Below, piece after piece: positions 3,518-8,122 of a DNA stretch of 64,000 nucleotides; position 1 is the stretch's first letter; each line of letters starts with the position of its first letter. The position numbers and the translations under genes are program-made. Origin of the DNA: an uncultured Pseudomonas sp. (GTDB taxonomy: Bacteria; Pseudomonadota; Gammaproteobacteria; Pseudomonadales; Pseudomonadaceae); NCBI GenBank assembly GCA_963518285.1, contig CAUQIJ010000008.1:125269-189268 (forward strand), read 5' to 3'. The notes under the pieces were generated by a model, which was not told the origin of the DNA, ran no database searches, and saw nothing but the letters and a program-made list of their open reading frames with translations.

Positions 3518-4507
<990 letters not shown>

Positions 4508-4516
4508 TCCATTTTT

Positions 4517-4557
4517 GGGGCCGCTTTGCGGCCCAATCGCGACACAAGGCCGCTCCT
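4517..4557. repeat. Left part of a REP doublet (REPIN) interrupted by the IS110 element
   Basis: GGGGCCGCTTTGCGGCCCAATCGCGACACAAGGCCGCTCCT nearly identical to intact copy at 21867; breaks at CT. Confidence 0.9.
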
Positions 4558-4571
4558 TGTATGTTCTCTAC

Positions 4572-4795
4572 ACGCCCCAAGAGAGTCGTTATGCTTGCGG
4601 GTGCGTCATCAAAGAGATGTGTTCTGGGGGAGGCCGATCGCTCCTGAAGGCAGGACTTGCTCCTGACCTTGTCTGTAGAGAGGCTCCCCCGCCTCATTGC
4701 CCACCACGTAGAGTATCGAGAAGCCGACAAGTCGGACTTCGCATTACAAGGTTGCAGCGGCATGAAGTTCGAGGTCAGGGGAACCAGAGCCATCA
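4572..4795 (+). ncRNA. Bridge RNA (IS110 guide RNA) with target- and donor-binding loops; ends approximate
   Basis: Guides CGCTCCT (4639-4645), CTGTAG (4673-4678), AGAGTATC (4710-4717) and TACAAG (4745-4750) match the REP target and the circle-junction donor and lie in internal loops of predicted stems. Confidence 0.88.
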
Positions 4796-4822
4796 TCACC
4801 TAATTTTTGTGGAGATGAAACC

Positions 4823-5818
4823 ATGGCTGTGCATGTCGGCCTGGATGTGGGCTCACGCTCGACAGCGATGAGCTGGCGCGAAAAAGGCCGTGCGGTTGGC
4901 TCATGGGAAATTCTTCAAACGCCCAAAAGCCGCAAGGCCGCGGTCAAAAAGCTGGTAGCCCTTAAGCCCATCAGCGTCGTCATGGAAGCTACCGGGATCT
5001 ACTATCTGGACTTGGCCATTGAGCTGCATGCTGCAGGTTTGCCTGTCTCGGTTATCAATCCTAAAAGCTCTCGTAATTTCGCCAAGCTCATGCTCCAGAA
5101 CAGCAAGACTGATGCAATTGATGCTCAATTGCTGGCTGAGTACGGTGAGCGCATGACGCCTCGTCCATGGAGCCCGCCAAGCCCCGCACAGCTTGAGCTG
5201 CGGGCTATTGGGCGACACCTCAACCGCCTGATTGGACATCGCACCCGGGCCAAGAATGAGCTGCATGCGCTCAAAGCAACGCAAACGTCCTCGCTGATGT
5301 TGATCGAGGATGAAGAGGAGGCCATCTCCTCGTTCGATAAGCGTATTGAGCGTTTTCGCCAAGCTGGCCGAGACCTGATTGCCAGCTGTCCGACTCTACA
5401 AGCTCAGTTTGAGCACATGCAGGCCGCGCCTGGTATGGGAGAGGTTTCGACATTGGCAGCACTGGCGGAGATGACTGCGCTTCCCACCTTCTTGAAAGCT
5501 GCGCAAGTGAGCCGGCATGCTGGGTTGGACGTGCGGCTAACGCAGTCTGGAACGAGCATCGACAAGCCTGGCAGGCTGAGTAAATGCGGCAACGCCTACT
5601 TACGTTCCTCTCTTTTCATGCCAGCAATGTCAGCGATCAGATGTGATCCGCTGGTGAAAGCCTTCTTTGAGGGCTTGGTGGCGAGGGGAAAGAGAAAAAT
5701 GCAGGCCATCTGTGCAGTGATGCGCAAATACCTGACCGGGCTATGGGCGTGCATGCAGACCGGCCTACCATTCGATACGGCCAAGCTTTTTAGCGAGAAA
5801 CACCTGCTAAAAGCTTGA
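4823..5818 (+). CDS. IS110-family DEDD recombinase/transposase
   Basis: VGLDVG (D8), VMEATG (E55), KTDAID (D97/D100), QSGTS (S242), CGNAYLRSSLF; GGAG RBS at 4811-4814. Confidence 0.95.
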   Translation: MAVHVGLDVGSRSTAMSWREKGRAVGSWEILQTPKSRKAAVKKLVALKPISVVMEATGIYYLDLAIELHAAGLPVSVINPKSSRNFAKLMLQNSKTDAIDAQLLAEYGERMTPRPWSPPSPAQLELRAIGRHLNRLIGHRTRAKNELHALKATQTSSLMLIEDEEEAISSFDKRIERFRQAGRDLIASCPTLQAQFEHMQAAPGMGEVSTLAALAEMTALPTFLKAAQVSRHAGLDVRLTQSGTSIDKPGRLSKCGNAYLRSSLFMPAMSAIRCDPLVKAFFEGLVARGKRKMQAICAVMRKYLTGLWACMQTGLPFDTAKLFSEKHLLKA

Positions 5819-5820
5819 CC
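5815..5820 (+). promoter_or_regulatory. -35 hexamer TTGACC of the circle-junction promoter (pairs with -10 TATGTT at 4560-4565 after excision)
   Basis: Joining 5835 to 4558 gives TTGACC-17 nt-TATGTT. Confidence 0.8.
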
Positions 5821-5835
5821 ATGAACAGAGTATCT

Positions 5836-5915
5836 ACAGGGACCGCGCCGCACCTGACACGGCGCGGTCCCTGTAGGAGCGGCCTTGTGTCGCGATTGGG
5901 CTGCGCAGCAGCCCC
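5836..5915. repeat. Right remainder of the REP doublet (spacer palindrome plus second REP arm)
   Basis: ACAGGGACCGCGCCG/CGGCGCGGTCCCTGT followed by AGGAGCGGCCTTGTGTCGCGA...GCAGCCCC. Confidence 0.9.
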
Positions 5916-6134
5916 ATCCCCCGCCAGACCAATGCCTCCCGTGAATATTTAATATGCCGCCCAGGCATCAAAATCCCCGCCCTCCCGGCCAGCCCAACAA
6001 CCACGCGGCCTGCGGCTCTCACCCCAATACCAATATTCAATAAAGTTCTAACTTTACGTTTAAACATTACTTTCAGAGATAAGCGTCTGGCGCCGATGAT
6101 TCAGCCATGAATCGAGACCCCAGGAGTTTGATCA

Positions 6135-6932
6135 ATGGGTAATGTCCATACGGCCGTCAGGGCCTACGACCAGCCATGGCGCCCGGCCCCGGGCGACCTG
6201 GTCGAGCTTGGACGCACGCTTCGCCTGCCGCTCGGCCAGCTGCGCCTGCAACGCACGCCGGTCAGCGGCCTCAAGCGCCGCGACAAATGGGCCTTGGCCC
6301 TGCTGGTAGTGGCGCTGCATGGCGCGGCCGCGTACTGGATCAGCCAGAGCCCGACGCCACCGTTGCCAGTCGTGCCACCGCAGATCCCGCCCATGACCAT
6401 CGAGTTTGCCGCCCCGGCCCCGCCCGTGGTCGAGCCGCCACCGCCTGCACCAGCGCCCCCGGTAGTCGAGCCACCGCCGCCGCCGGTAGTCGATGAGCTG
6501 GCGGCCAAACCTGCGCCCAAACCAAAACCCAAGCCGGTACCCAAGCCTGTCGTCAAGCCTGTGGCCAAGCCCGTGCCGAAACCGGTGGAAGCCCCGCCGC
6601 CGCCAGTCGCTGCACCTGCGCCAACGCCAGCTCCACCAGCGCCAGCGCCTGTAACGCCGCCGTCGGCCAACGCTGCCTACCTGAAGAACCCGGCGCCGGA
6701 ATACCCGCAGATGGCCCAGCGCCGCGGCTGGGAAGGCACCGTGCTGCTGCGGGTCGAGGTCATGGCCAGCGGCAAGCCTGGCCAGATCCAGATTCAGAAG
6801 AGCAGTGGCCGCCCGGCCCTCGACGACGCCGCACTGGCCGCCGTCAAGCGCTGGAGCTTTGTCCCGGCCAAGCAGGGCGATGTTGCCCAGTCCGGCTGGG
6901 TAAGTGTGCCGATCGACTTCAAGCTGCGCTGA
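6135..6932 (+). CDS. tonB: Energy transducer TonB (TonB2-like, sulfur-associated)
   Basis: TM segment with LH motif, Pro/Lys-rich linker, C-terminal YP..A.RRGWEGTV..SSG...LD.AAL domain. Confidence 0.92.
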   Translation: MGNVHTAVRAYDQPWRPAPGDLVELGRTLRLPLGQLRLQRTPVSGLKRRDKWALALLVVALHGAAAYWISQSPTPPLPVVPPQIPPMTIEFAAPAPPVVEPPPPAPAPPVVEPPPPPVVDELAAKPAPKPKPKPVPKPVVKPVAKPVPKPVEAPPPPVAAPAPTPAPPAPAPVTPPSANAAYLKNPAPEYPQMAQRRGWEGTVLLRVEVMASGKPGQIQIQKSSGRPALDDAALAAVKRWSFVPAKQGDVAQSGWVSVPIDFKLR

Positions 6933-6990
6933 TTACACCCCCGAACATGCACCTGAACCGTATACCGACCGAACATAGGAAGACTTCATC

Positions 6991-7719
6991 ATGAGCCTGC
7001 TGGCATCCGCATCTCCCCTCGAGTCCGTTGAAGTAGCCGTGATCTGGCTGCTGGTTGTGTTCTCTGTCGCCACCTGGGGCCTGGCGCTGATCAAGGCCGT
7101 CCAGTTCGTGCGCCTGAAGAACCAGGACAAACGCTTCCACAAGCAGTTCTGGGCCGCCTCCAGTCTCGATTCGGCGGCTGAGCTTAGCCATGAACTGCCA
7201 GGCCCGGCCGCCCGTGTGGCGCAGTCCGGGTATGCCGCCATCGCCGTCGGTGAGCCTGGCCATGCCAGCGACCTTAGCCAGTCGATCAACCACCAGGACC
7301 GCCTCGAGCGTGCCCTGCGCCAGCAGATCGTGCGTGAGCGGCGCTCGCTGGAAACCGGCCTGGCAGTCGTTGCCAGTATCGGCAGCACCTCGCCCTTCAT
7401 CGGCCTGTTCGGCACCGTGTGGGGCATCATGGAAGCGCTCAAGGGCATCAGTGCGGCAGGTTCGGCCAGCCTCGAAACCGTGGCCGGGCCGATCGGTGCG
7501 GCACTGGTTGCAACCGGTGTCGGTATTGCCGTCGCGGTGCCGGCGGTGCTGGTCTACAACTACTTCCTGCGCCGGCTCAAGCTGACTGCTGCCGACCTCG
7601 ATGACTTTGCCCATGACTTCTACAGCCTGGCCCAGAAGAGCGCCTTCCGCGTGCTGGTCCACCCGACCGCACACAAGCCTCAGACCGGCTTCACCCAGCC
7701 CGTGAAAGAGGCGTCCTGA
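6991..7719 (+). CDS. exbB: ExbB/MotA/TolQ proton channel
   Basis: SPFIGLFGTVWGIM and ALVATGVGIAVAVPA motifs. Confidence 0.92.
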   Translation: MSLLASASPLESVEVAVIWLLVVFSVATWGLALIKAVQFVRLKNQDKRFHKQFWAASSLDSAAELSHELPGPAARVAQSGYAAIAVGEPGHASDLSQSINHQDRLERALRQQIVRERRSLETGLAVVASIGSTSPFIGLFGTVWGIMEALKGISAAGSASLETVAGPIGAALVATGVGIAVAVPAVLVYNYFLRRLKLTAADLDDFAHDFYSLAQKSAFRVLVHPTAHKPQTGFTQPVKEAS

Positions 7720-7720
7720 T

Positions 7721-8122
7721 ATGGCCTTTTCAACCCAGGACAACGACGAAGTCCTCAGCGAAATCAACGTCACGCCCCTGGTCGACGTCATGCTGGTGCT
7801 GCTGGTGGTGTTCATCGTCACCGCCCCGCTGCTGACCAACGCGATCCCGATCAACCTGCCCAAGACCGAAGCCGTAGCCCCGGTCGAGCAAAAAGACCCG
7901 CTGGTGGTCAGTATCGATGGTGGCGGCAAGCTGTTCATCAACAAGGACGAGATTCAGCCAGACCTGCTCGAAAGCAACCTCAAGGCGGCCAAGCTCAAGG
8001 ACGCCGAGGTGCGCGTGCAGCTGCAGGCCGACGACGGCGTCAATTACGGCGAAGTGGCCCGCGCCATGGCGGCCATCGAACGCGCCGGGATCACCAAGCT
8101 GGCGGTGATAACCGCACGCTAG
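7721..8122 (+). CDS. exbD: ExbD/TolR
   Basis: EINVTPLVDVMLVLL motif. Confidence 0.92.
   Translation: MAFSTQDNDEVLSEINVTPLVDVMLVLLVVFIVTAPLLTNAIPINLPKTEAVAPVEQKDPLVVSIDGGGKLFINKDEIQPDLLESNLKAAKLKDAEVRVQLQADDGVNYGEVARAMAAIERAGITKLAVITAR

What the first reader, a model, noticed from the sequence alone, without database searches (positions are those of the whole stretch)
4558..4822. Readable bridge RNA in the IS110 left end, programmed for the host REP
Seen: the reconstructed target is GCCGCTC-CT-ACAG (REP) and the donor (circle junction) is AGAGTAT-CT-TGTAT. Target loop: stem GGGGGAG(4626-4632)/CTCCCCC(4684-4690) encloses left guide (AT)CGCTCCT (4637-4645), inner hairpin AAGGCAGGA/TCCTG-A-CCTT and right guide CTGTAG (4673-4678, reverse complement of CTACAG). 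Donor loop: left guide AGAGTATC (4710-4717, identical to 5827-5834), inner hairpin GAAGCCGA/TCGG-A-CTTC and right guide TACAAG (4745-4750, reverse complement of CTTGTA). A possible long-range helix 4616-4627/4784-4794 closes both loops. Established: IS110/IS621 recombinases use such bispecific RNAs, a CT core and DEDD+Ser catalysis; all five residues are present (D8, E55, D97, D100, S242). Inference: an intact, natively REP-targeted, reprogrammable RNA-guided recombinase ortholog. Whether this exact IS is already named is unknown.
Basis: partly seen in the sequence, partly recalled or inferred. Interest (0 to 1): 0.9.

Follow-up and report, generated by a model that had tools for sequence, protein, structure and literature searches.

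The report
REP-targeted IS110 element with bridge RNA
This is an intact-looking IS110-family jumping gene sitting in a Pseudomonas repeat (REP), and its left end encodes a bridge RNA whose two loops match the REP and the element's own ends; it is a new member of an already well-described kind.

Summary
Window 4558-5835 is a 1,278-bp IS110-family element. It has a 265-nt non-coding left end, a 331-aa DEDD+Ser recombinase gene (4823-5818) and a 17-nt right end. It sits at a CT core inside a REP.

Evidence from 20 related left ends:
- The two-loop fold is kept by compensatory changes: 20 of 44 pairs change on both sides, and 92.9% of cells pair against 33-54% when partners are slid.
- The target-loop guides change together with the flanking host sequence: 10 guide variants, 20 sites, and 1 of 100,000 permutations reaches the observed match.
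- The donor loop is 97% conserved, while the gene is only about 70% identical at DNA level.
- The host genome carries 93 exact copies of the 13-nt target, all in one REP family.
- A sigma-70 promoter (TTGACC-17-TATGTT) forms only at the circle junction.

Corrections:
- The target-loop base stem is a 9-bp helix with a bulged A, not 7 contiguous pairs.
- The first two bases of the left target guide do not match this host's REP.

Verdict: a new member of a known kind (IS621, ISCro4, ISPpu10). Activity and reprogrammability are inferred, not shown. Interest is modest.

The parts
4516..4557 (+). Left part of the split REP. It ends in the left target GCCGCTC plus core CT (4556-4557).
   Evidence: REP consensus from 97 sites; inverted repeat I1 with 5875-5916.
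4558..4822 (+). Non-coding left end of the IS, which is the bridge-RNA template.
   Evidence: own covariance model, 288.5 bits.
4560..4565 (+). -10 hexamer TATGTT of the junction promoter.
   Evidence: Read. It lies 17 nt from TTGACC (5815-5820) only when the right and left ends are joined.
4571..4607 (+). 5' stem-loop (approximate limits).
   Evidence: a hairpin is predicted here in the window and in the 16 left ends of its own clade, with differing sequences.
4616..4625 (+). 5' strand of the long-range helix that closes both loops.
   Evidence: helix 1: 6 of 9 pairs change on both sides; 80.4% of cells pair.
4626..4635 (+). Target-binding-loop base stem, 5' strand, with bulged A4631.
   Evidence: helix 2 (97.3% paired, 3 covarying pairs). 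One search tests the rival register.
4637..4645 (+). Left target guide AUCGCUCCU, the same sense as the target top strand.
4647..4670 (+). Target-loop inner hairpin with bulged A4666.
   Evidence: helix 3 (98.2% paired, 5 of 9 pairs covary).
4673..4678 (+). Right target guide CUGUAG, the reverse complement of CT+ACAG. It is followed by handshake positions A4679 and G4680.
4682..4690 (+). Target-loop base stem, 3' strand.
4691..4701 (+). Donor-binding-loop outer stems, 5' strands (GCCUC at 4691-4695, UGCC at 4698-4701).
   Evidence: helices 4-6.
4710..4717 (+). Left donor guide AGAGUAUC, identical to right-end positions 5827-5834.
   Evidence: D16. IS621's left donor guide is likewise 8 nt and stops at the C of the core.
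4720..4740 (+). Donor-loop inner hairpin with bulged A4736.
   Evidence: helix 7.
4743..4750 (+). Right donor guide AUUACAAG. Its last 6 nt are the reverse complement of CT+TGTA. It is followed by handshake positions G4751 and U4752.
4759..4775 (+). Donor-loop outer stems, 3' strands (GGCA at 4759-4762, GAGGU at 4771-4775).
4786..4794 (+). 3' strand of the long-range helix.
   Evidence: helix 1.
4823..5818 (+). Recombinase gene, 331 aa, with DEDD residues D8, E55, D97, D100 and Ser242. A GGAG ribosome-binding motif lies at 4811-4814.
5815..5820 (+). -35 hexamer TTGACC of the junction promoter; it overlaps the stop codon.
   Evidence: Read.
5827..5835 (+). Right end: left donor AGAGTAT plus core CT.
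   Evidence: conserved in all relatives that have a right end.
5836..5850 (+). Right part of the split REP; it begins with the right target ACAG.
   Evidence: I2.
5871..5883 (-). Second, unoccupied copy of the 13-nt target, in the inverted partner REP.
   Evidence: Read (I1, I2).

Best explanation
Window 4558-5835 is an IS110-family (IS621-like) insertion sequence. Most likely it moves as follows.
1. The element is excised as a circle.
2. Joining the right end to the left end creates a sigma-70 promoter (TTGACC-17-TATGTT).
3. That promoter transcribes the left end into a bridge RNA of about 220-250 nt, followed by the recombinase mRNA.
4. The RNA folds into a 5' stem-loop and two stem-loops with internal loops.
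5. The first loop pairs with both strands of a REP target, GCCGCTC-CT-ACAG. The left guide pairs with the bottom strand and the right guide with the top strand.
6. The second loop pairs in the same way with the circle junction, AGAGTAT-CT-TGTAT.
7. The DEDD/Ser recombinase, bound to the RNA, exchanges strands at the CT core.

Shown here:
- the anatomy of the element;
- the conserved, covarying fold;
- guide-target covariation among relatives;
- 93 matching targets in the host genome.

Inferred from IS621, ISCro4 and ISPpu10: transcription, RNA-protein binding, the chemistry of recombination, and reprogrammability.
For: Protein:
- Pfam DEDD_Tnp_IS110 (E 5.9e-24) and Transposase_20 (E 7.6e-17).
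- The best solved relatives are the ISCro4 transposase (E 1.1e-39) and the IS621 transposase (E 9.4e-34). E55, D97, D100 and S242 lie on the IS621 catalytic residues.

Fold, on 21 left ends:
- 44 pairs; 92.9% of 898 cells pair, against 33.1-54.2% with partners slid by 1-3 columns.
- 20 of 44 pairs change on both sides (shuffled mean 9.2; 0 of 500 shuffles reach the observed value).
- G.U pairs make the fold specific to the + strand, for example columns 140/229 with G.U in 17 of 21 sequences.

Guides:
- 10 distinct guide pairs and 20 distinct sites.
- Mean 12.78 of 15 positions matched, against 11.0 +/- 0.56 when guides are permuted among site groups.
- 1 of 100,000 permutations reaches the observed value.

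Natural swaps:
- Right guide CUGUAG with CTACAG, CCGUAG with CTACGG, ACGUAG with CTACGT, AUGUAG with CTACAT, and UUGUAG with CTACAA.
- Left guide CGCUCCU, CGGUCC, CACUCCU, AUCCCUCCU (9 of 9 positions), CACGCCCU, CACAACCU and UCGCACCU, each with its own flank.

Architecture matches the IS621 structure paper:
- an 8-nt left donor guide that stops at the core C;
- a bulged A in each of four stems;
- G-first two-base linkers before the right guides (GU in the target loop, GC in the donor loop; IS621 has G72-U73 and G155-U156);
- first handshake bases A (pairs with donor T7) and G (pairs with target C7).

Conservation: the donor loop is 97.4% identical to the window across 16 relatives, and the target loop plus long-range helix is 89.4%. 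The coding sequence is about 63-74% identical in the 14 usable relatives.

Host: 93 exact copies of GCCGCTCCTACAG, all within one REP consensus; about 4 copies of its 11-nt core are expected by chance.

Promoter: none is predicted in the integrated context. TTGACC (5815-5820) and TATGTT (4560-4565) come to 17-nt spacing only at the junction. This is the arrangement described for IS621 and ISPpu10.

Weak hint: contigs in two soil RNA libraries from different studies cover 4640-4780 and 4640-4767 of a relative that carries a right-guide variant. DNA carry-over cannot be excluded.
Against: - No RNA, circle junction or new insertion was observed for this copy.
- It is single-copy in a genome that holds 93 perfect targets.
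- Left-guide positions 1-2 (AU) do not match this host's REP (GC). Two relatives match their flanks at all 9 positions.
- Some relatives show right-guide mismatches at positions 5-6: L050 has two; L051, L040 and L015 have one each.
- The G092 variant's left guide has C opposite the core T.
- The donor guides are invariant across all relatives, so there is no covariation evidence for the donor loop.
- The minimum-free-energy fold of the single sequence is not better than shuffles (z -0.88). The proposed fold lies 5 kcal/mol above the unconstrained optimum when enforced.
- No Rfam family matches.
- The structure tested was derived from these same related sequences, which inflates both controls.
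Confidence: 0.88

Rival explanations
1. The element has the full bridge-recombinase anatomy but is a silent or disabled copy. It may be a recent arrival tuned to another host's REP, and it no longer transposes here.
For: - One copy only, although 93 exact targets exist, including one 35 nt away at 5871-5883.
- Left-guide positions 1-2 mismatch the host REP but match the flank in another Pseudomonas record (L046, ATCGCTCCT, 9 of 9).
- No promoter is predicted in the integrated state.
Against: - The reading frame is open and full length, like all close relatives, which align over residues 1-331.
- All five catalytic residues are present.
- Both ends and all four guides are intact.
- The ISPpu10 preprint reports that distal left-guide positions tolerate mismatches.
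- Low copy number is common for IS110 elements whose promoter exists only in the circle.
Confidence: 0.1
2. The guide-like words are DNA sites (subterminal repeats) read by the protein, and the left end is only a structured 5' untranslated region that controls translation. No RNA guide is involved.
For: - The left donor guide is a direct DNA repeat of the right end (D16).
- ISPpu9 and ISPpu10 have structured 5' untranslated regions and antisense RNAs that regulate the transposase.
- 8-nt repeats are common by chance in this stretch: 20 direct-repeat families in 1.5 kb.
Against: - The target guides covary with host sequence outside the element.
- The stems keep pairing through G.U pairs that exist only on the + strand RNA.
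- The guide words sit in the internal loops at the same positions as in the solved IS621 RNA.
- The loops are more conserved than the gene.
Confidence: 0.02

Closest known systems
IS621 (Escherichia coli) recombinase and bridge RNA
   Same: - RuvC-like DEDD domain plus Tnp domain with a catalytic Ser.
- CT core.
- A bridge RNA encoded in the left end: a 5' stem-loop, a variable target loop and a conserved donor loop.
- The left guides have the sense of the top strand, and the right guides are reverse complements that include the core.
- An 8-nt left donor guide, bulged A residues, G-first two-base linkers before the right guides (GU in the target loop) and handshake bases.
- A REP target and a junction promoter.
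   Different: - Only a distant protein relative: phmmer E 9.4e-34, aligned over residues 51-320.
- No DNA match to complete E. coli genomes.
- The right target guide is 6 contiguous bases here against 4 in IS621.
- One linker base precedes the left target guide, against three in IS621.
- An extra covarying long-range helix (4616-4625 with 4786-4794) is not mentioned in the passages I read of either IS621 paper.
- A different REP family is targeted.
ISCro4 transposase (PDB 9t56)
   Same: Best solved-structure relative. It aligns over residues 5-321, including the GxDxG start of the RuvC-like domain.
   Different: Known to me here only as a PDB chain name. I did not see its RNA or its target.
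ISPpu10 (Pseudomonas putida KT2440)
   Same: - A Pseudomonas IS110 element of about 1.3 kb that inserts into REPs.
- CT duplication, a junction promoter and a bridge RNA mapped by the IS621 logic.
- Its published target consensus TTCGCGGGTAAACCCGCTCCTAC shares CCGCTCCT|AC with this element's target.
   Different: The two sequences were not compared directly.
- Among 400 sampled genomes of the genus, everything outside this element's own clade is at most 38% identical in protein.
- The three genomes richest in the ISPpu10-type REP (382, 314 and 130 copies) gave no hit at E <= 1e-20.
- Three others with that REP gave hits of 28-29% identity.

This points to a separate lineage aimed at the same REP core.
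ISPpu9 (Pseudomonas putida KT2440)
   Same: IS110 family, with the same REP insertion point as ISPpu10.
   Different: ISPpu9 forms no hybrid junction promoter and carries an extra small-RNA gene. This element has a clear junction promoter and only 17 nt after the stop codon.

Membership tests
IS110 family, IS110 group (bridge recombinase elements) | N-terminal RuvC-like DEDD domain. | tested here: met
   PF01548, E 5.9e-24, residues 5-150. E55, D97 and D100 align to the IS621 catalytic residues, and D8 aligns to the ISCro4 GIDV motif.
IS110 family, IS110 group (bridge recombinase elements) | C-terminal Tnp domain with a conserved catalytic Ser followed by Gly. | tested here: met
   PF02371, E 7.6e-17. 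S242-G243 aligns to IS621 S241-G242, allowing for a chain offset of +2.
IS110 family, IS110 group (bridge recombinase elements) | No terminal inverted repeats, a 2-bp core (CT) at both junctions, and a site-specific target. | tested here: met
   CT lies at 4556-4557 and 5834-5835. The same ends (TGTATG...AGAGTATCT) and CT occur at all relatives' junctions except the composite copies.
IS110 family, IS110 group (bridge recombinase elements) | A long non-coding left end upstream of the gene and a short right end. | tested here: met
   The left end is 265 nt and the right end is 17 nt after the stop codon.
IS110 family, IS110 group (bridge recombinase elements) | A promoter reconstituted across the right-end/left-end junction. 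| tested here: met
   By sequence only: TTGACC at 5815-5820, a 17-nt spacer, and TATGTT at 4560-4565. No promoter is predicted in the integrated context. Transcription was not tested.
Bridge RNA | [quoted passage not shown] | tested here: met
   The donor loop is 97.4% identical and the target loop 89.4% identical across relatives. This matches the description.
Bridge RNA | Guides in the loops pair with the target and donor on opposite strands, and each includes the core. | tested here: met
   All four guide words occur together in 1 of 200,000 shuffles.
Bridge RNA | Target guides covary with target sites across orthologues. | tested here: met
   10 guide variants and 20 sites; 1 of 100,000 permutations reaches the observed match.
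Bridge RNA | Donor guides covary with the element's ends. | tested here: inconclusive
   Guides and ends are invariant in the 70-82% clade. They vary only slightly in the 38-49% relatives.
Bridge RNA | The RNA is expressed and binds its recombinase, and recombination depends on the guides. | not testable with these tools
   The only data are contigs of a relative in two soil RNA libraries, which do not prove transcription.
ISPpu10 (as a named IS) | High sequence identity to ISPpu10. I recall that ISfinder usually asks for at least 95% DNA or 98% protein identity for an isoform; this comes from no call. | not tested
   No ISPpu10 sequence was available. Indirectly, no relative above 38% identity was found outside this element's own clade in 400 genus genomes.
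Rfam families | A match to a curated covariance model. | tested here: not met
   No family matches the left end. The only hits, at E 0.3-0.9, fall on the flanking REP hairpin.

The most novel reading that the evidence does not exclude
In this Pseudomonas clade the bridge RNA may not be the IS621-type linear series of three stem-loops. A covarying long-range helix (4616-4625 with 4786-4794; 6 of 9 pairs compensatory) closes the target and donor arms into a junction just upstream of the ribosome-binding site. The helix could set the 3' boundary or processing of the RNA. It could hold the two loops in a fixed geometry. It could also couple RNA folding to recombinase translation. In addition, this lineage and the distantly related ISPpu9/ISPpu10 lineage appear to have arrived independently at the same REP core, CCGCTCCT|AC.
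Probability: 0.3. Interest if true: 0.45.

Novelty: new member of a known kind. Interest (0 to 1): 0.3.

Why it matters
It adds a well-documented natural orthologue to the bridge-recombinase family. With it comes a ready-made natural series of guide swaps: five right-guide variants and at least seven left-guide variants, each found beside its matching flank. That series shows target reprogramming happening in nature among recombinases that are 70-82% identical to the window's.

It also shows a second Pseudomonas IS110 lineage aimed at the same REP core as ISPpu9 and ISPpu10.

For genome annotation, it explains a 1.3-kb interruption of a REP pair between an ABC-transporter ATPase gene and downstream genes.

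It does not reveal a new mechanism.

Tried and rejected
- Rfam scan of 4300-6100: no family on the left end.
- Single-sequence fold: z -0.88, uninformative on its own.
- DNA search (blastn, 11-base words) of the whole IS against complete E. coli genomes and against plasmids: no match.
- My covariance model R1, built from the 21 left ends, found only the window copy. It found nothing in nine left ends of relatives at 38% identity or less, in an E. coli plasmid IS110 element, or in L056. It found no orphan copy in the window's own genome. The model is dominated by close relatives (effective number of sequences 2.21).
- RNA libraries: run X2 gave nothing. Runs X6 and X13 gave no cover of the 5' part of the left end (4562-4615) or of the gene. 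This means nothing, because the relatives' genes are too diverged to be laid at 88% likeness, and contigs cannot show RNA ends. The shared contig start at 4640 falls in the variable left guide and is probably an assembly break.
- Second handshake positions (G4680, U4752) do not pair with donor A6 or target T6. Only the first handshake positions fit.

Full report
**What is there.** Reading 4300-6100 and listing open frames shows a 1,278-bp insert at 4558-5835 inside a repeat.
- The left flank ends ...CAAGGCCGCTC-CT and the insert starts TGTATG.
- The insert ends AGAGTAT-CT and the right flank starts ACAGGGACC.
- The only long frame that makes sense is 4823-5818 (331 aa), preceded by GGAG at 4811-4814.
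- It carries Pfam DEDD_Tnp_IS110 (E 5.9e-24) and Transposase_20 (E 7.6e-17).
- Against solved structures, the best relatives are the ISCro4 transposase (9t56, E 1.1e-39) and the IS621 transposase (8wt6, E 9.4e-34).
- In that alignment E55, D97, D100 and S242 fall on the IS621 residues that the structure paper names as catalytic: E60, D102, D105 and S241, with the PDB chain offset by 2 (passages read).
- D8 sits in VGLDVG, opposite ISCro4 IGIDVS.

**The flanks are a REP.**
- The own genome (5.33 Mb in 28 contigs, laid) holds 93 exact copies of the 13-nt reconstructed target GCCGCTCCTACAG. About 4 copies of its 11-nt core are expected by chance.
- The 97 sites that share GCTCCTACAG give one consensus, GGGGCcGCTttGCggCCCTTTCGCGACACAAGGCCGCTCCTACAGG.
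- In the window, the split REP pairs with an inverted partner REP at 5860-5916 (I1 and I2). That partner still holds an intact target at 5871-5883 on the minus strand.
- The element itself is single-copy in this genome by DNA search and by my RNA model.

Every coordinate checks:

| Feature | Sequence | Coordinates |
|---|---|---|
| Left target guide | AUCGCUCCU | 4637-4645 |
| Target-loop hairpin | | 4647-4670 |
| Right target guide | CUGUAG | 4673-4678 |
| Left donor guide | AGAGUAUC | 4710-4717 (= 5827-5834) |
| Donor-loop hairpin | | 4720-4740 |
| Right donor guide | UACAAG | 4745-4750 |
| Long-range helix | | 4616-4625 with 4786-4794 |

In 200,000 shuffles of the left end, all four guide words occurred together once.

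By the rules set out for IS621, the left guides have the sense of the top strand and the right guides are reverse complements, each including the core (passages). These words are on the correct strands and in the correct order.

Finer points also match what the IS621 structure paper states:
- an 8-nt left donor guide that stops at the core C;
- one bulged A in each of the four stems (A4631, A4666 and A4736 here, plus the outer donor-loop region);
- a G-first two-base linker before each right guide (GU in the target loop, GC in the donor loop);
- a first handshake base A after the right target guide, which can pair with donor T7;
- a first handshake base G after the right donor guide, which can pair with target C7.

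The second handshake bases do not fit.

**Relatives.**
- A six-frame protein search of 400 sampled genomes of the same genus found the element's clade (70-82% protein identity) in 12 of them.
- A scan of species-representative contigs added named Pseudomonas records: P. siliginis, P. atacamensis and several Pseudomonas sp..
- The same scan found a Halomonas-labelled metagenome bin at 78% and three methanotroph or Cycloclasticus-related elements at 38%.
- A Vibrio alginolyticus IncC plasmid carries a 49% relative.
- Outside the clade, nothing in the 400 genus genomes exceeds 38%.

From all of these I took 21 distinct left ends, the window's included.

**Fold.** On that alignment, the structure I wrote has seven helices: the long-range helix, the target-loop base stem and hairpin, three segments of donor-loop outer stem, and the donor-loop hairpin. 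Results:
- It pairs 92.9% of 898 cells, against 33.1-54.2% when partners are slid by 1-3 columns.
- 20 of 44 pairs show changes on both sides (shuffled mean 9.2; 0 of 500 shuffles reach the observed value).

Its A-U pair forms in 6 of 15 sequences. The bulged-A register is 97.3% paired.

The 5' region is poorly conserved in sequence (47.7% identity), yet it folds into a hairpin in the window and in the 16 left ends of its own clade.

Caveat: the structure was derived from these same related sequences, so both controls are generous. The single-sequence fold alone is not significant.

**Guides against targets.** I kept every insertion for which both flanks were readable.
- Dropped: the four composite copies, whose right junction is not host DNA.
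- Dropped: loci cut by contig ends (L013; L014, L022 and L048; L042; L043).
- That leaves 10 distinct guide pairs and 20 distinct sites.
- The cognate match averages 12.78 of 15 positions, against 11.0 +/- 0.56 when guides are permuted among site groups. One of 100,000 permutations reaches the observed value.

The clearest cases are right-guide positions 5-6:
- CU with CTACAG.
- CC with CTACGG, at 3 of 4 sites in one genome.
- AC with CTACGT.
- AU with CTACAT.
- UU with CTACAA.

For the left guides, CGGUCC, CACUCCU, AUCCCUCCU, CACGCCCU, CACAACCU and UCGCACCU each lie next to their own flank.

Against the reading:
- L050 has two right-guide mismatches.
- L051, L040 and L015 have one each.
- The G092 variant's left guide has C opposite the core T.
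- In the window itself, left-guide positions 1-2 (AU) face GC. Two relatives match at all 9 positions.
- The donor guides and the element ends never vary, so they offer no covariation.

**Constraint.** Across 16 relatives of the clade:
- The donor loop is 97.4% identical to the window (range 94.1-100).
- The target loop plus long-range helix is 89.4% identical.
- The coding DNA is about 63-74% identical in the 14 usable comparisons. The L003 value is an artefact of a nested copy.

A non-coding segment far better kept than its gene, with the first loop variable and the second conserved, is what Durrant et al. describe for bridge RNAs (passage).

**Expression.**
- No sigma-70 promoter is predicted in the integrated context.
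- TTGACC (5815-5820, overlapping the stop codon) and TATGTT (4560-4565) come to a 17-nt spacing only when the right end is joined to the left end.
- This is the junction promoter shown experimentally for IS621 and ISPpu10.
- Two soil RNA libraries from different studies contain contigs over 4640-4780 and 4640-4767 of a relative that carries the AUGUAG right guide.
- This is only a weak hint, because DNA carry-over is possible and contigs show no ends.

**Comparison with what is known.**
- I read passages of Durrant et al. 2024 (PMC11208160).
- I read passages and one section of Hiraizumi et al. 2024 (PMC11208158).
- I read two of the three parts of the Results and one Methods passage of the ISPpu10 preprint (10.64898/2026.03.19.712850).
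- I read passages of the ISPpu9 paper (PMC12288879) and of Tobes and Pareja 2006 (PMC1525189).
- I did not see their figures or supplements. Those hold the actual IS621 and ISPpu10 RNA sequences and would allow a base-by-base comparison.

ISPpu10 is a 1.3-kb Pseudomonas IS110 element with a bridge RNA aimed at REPs. Its published target consensus, TTCGCGGGTAAACCCGCTCCTAC, shares CCGCTCCT|AC with the target here. The preprint already reports 268 homologous elements in Pseudomonas.

The present clade seems to be a different lineage:
- The three sampled genomes richest in that REP (382, 314 and 130 copies) gave no protein hit at E <= 1e-20.
- Three others with that REP gave hits of 28-29% identity.

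The tally of 64 of 401 genomes includes two genomes flagged unpublished. No other claim rests on them.

**Verdict.** It is a new member of a known kind.

The most unusual features are the covarying helix that closes both loops and the apparent convergence of two lineages on one REP core.

I ran one literature search. I did not search specifically for the closing helix in print, so I do not claim it is undescribed.

Noticed in passing
L004, L016, L024, L030 (one genome, G266); right junction just after the stop codon: All four copies are composites. The full element's right end reads AGAGTATC and then runs straight into a second, partial recombinase gene (residues 201-331, 81% identical to the window's protein). 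That partial gene is followed by a normal right end and CTACAG. A longer unit seems to move as one piece.
   Followed up: partly
L003 (G092), upstream of the left end: One copy is inserted into the first codons of another copy's recombinase gene, at ACGTCGGT-CT-ACGG. This is a near-cognate site, one base short of the usual GCCGGTC-CT-ACGG, so it looks like a natural off-target self-insertion.
   Followed up: partly
window 5860-5916 (minus-strand target at 5871-5883): The partner REP of the inverted pair is intact and carries a perfect 13-nt target only 35 nt from the element's right end, yet it is unoccupied.
   Followed up: partly
window 4516-4557: The left-target bases GGCCGC (4548-4553) repeat the first arm of the REP's own tight hairpin, GGCCGC-TTT-GCGGCC (4519-4533). 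The target could therefore fold back on GCGGCC. This recalls the target stem-loop that the ISPpu10 preprint reports as a second specificity determinant.
   Followed up: no
own genome, G000:C27:414-1325: There is a second IS110-family gene, only 29% identical to this one (E 4.7e-23), on a short contig.
   Followed up: no
L059 (Vibrio alginolyticus plasmid pVb1796, IncC, conjugative): A 49% relative with the same ends lacks the 5' stem-loop region (left end 232 nt). It sits at ACACACTCCT|ACAAGT, and its right guide UUGUAG matches perfectly. It shows the family travelling on a conjugative plasmid.
   Followed up: partly
L036 (metagenome bin labelled Halomonas): A 78% relative lies in a bin of another genus. 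Its left guide AUCCCUCCU matches its flank at 9 of 9 positions. This could be horizontal transfer or mis-binning.
   Followed up: no
Read laying on window 4508-4561 and 5858-5911: The REP halves reach summed contig depths in the thousands in the two soil RNA libraries (up to about 13,700 in X6 and about 4,100 in X13), from many different contexts. REP-containing contigs are abundant there.
   Followed up: no
window 3518-4507 and 6135-8122: The frame just upstream shows ABC-ATPase motifs ([14 protein letters not shown]) in its translation. Downstream there is a proline-rich frame followed by two small membrane-protein-like frames. None of these was searched against any family library.
   Followed up: no
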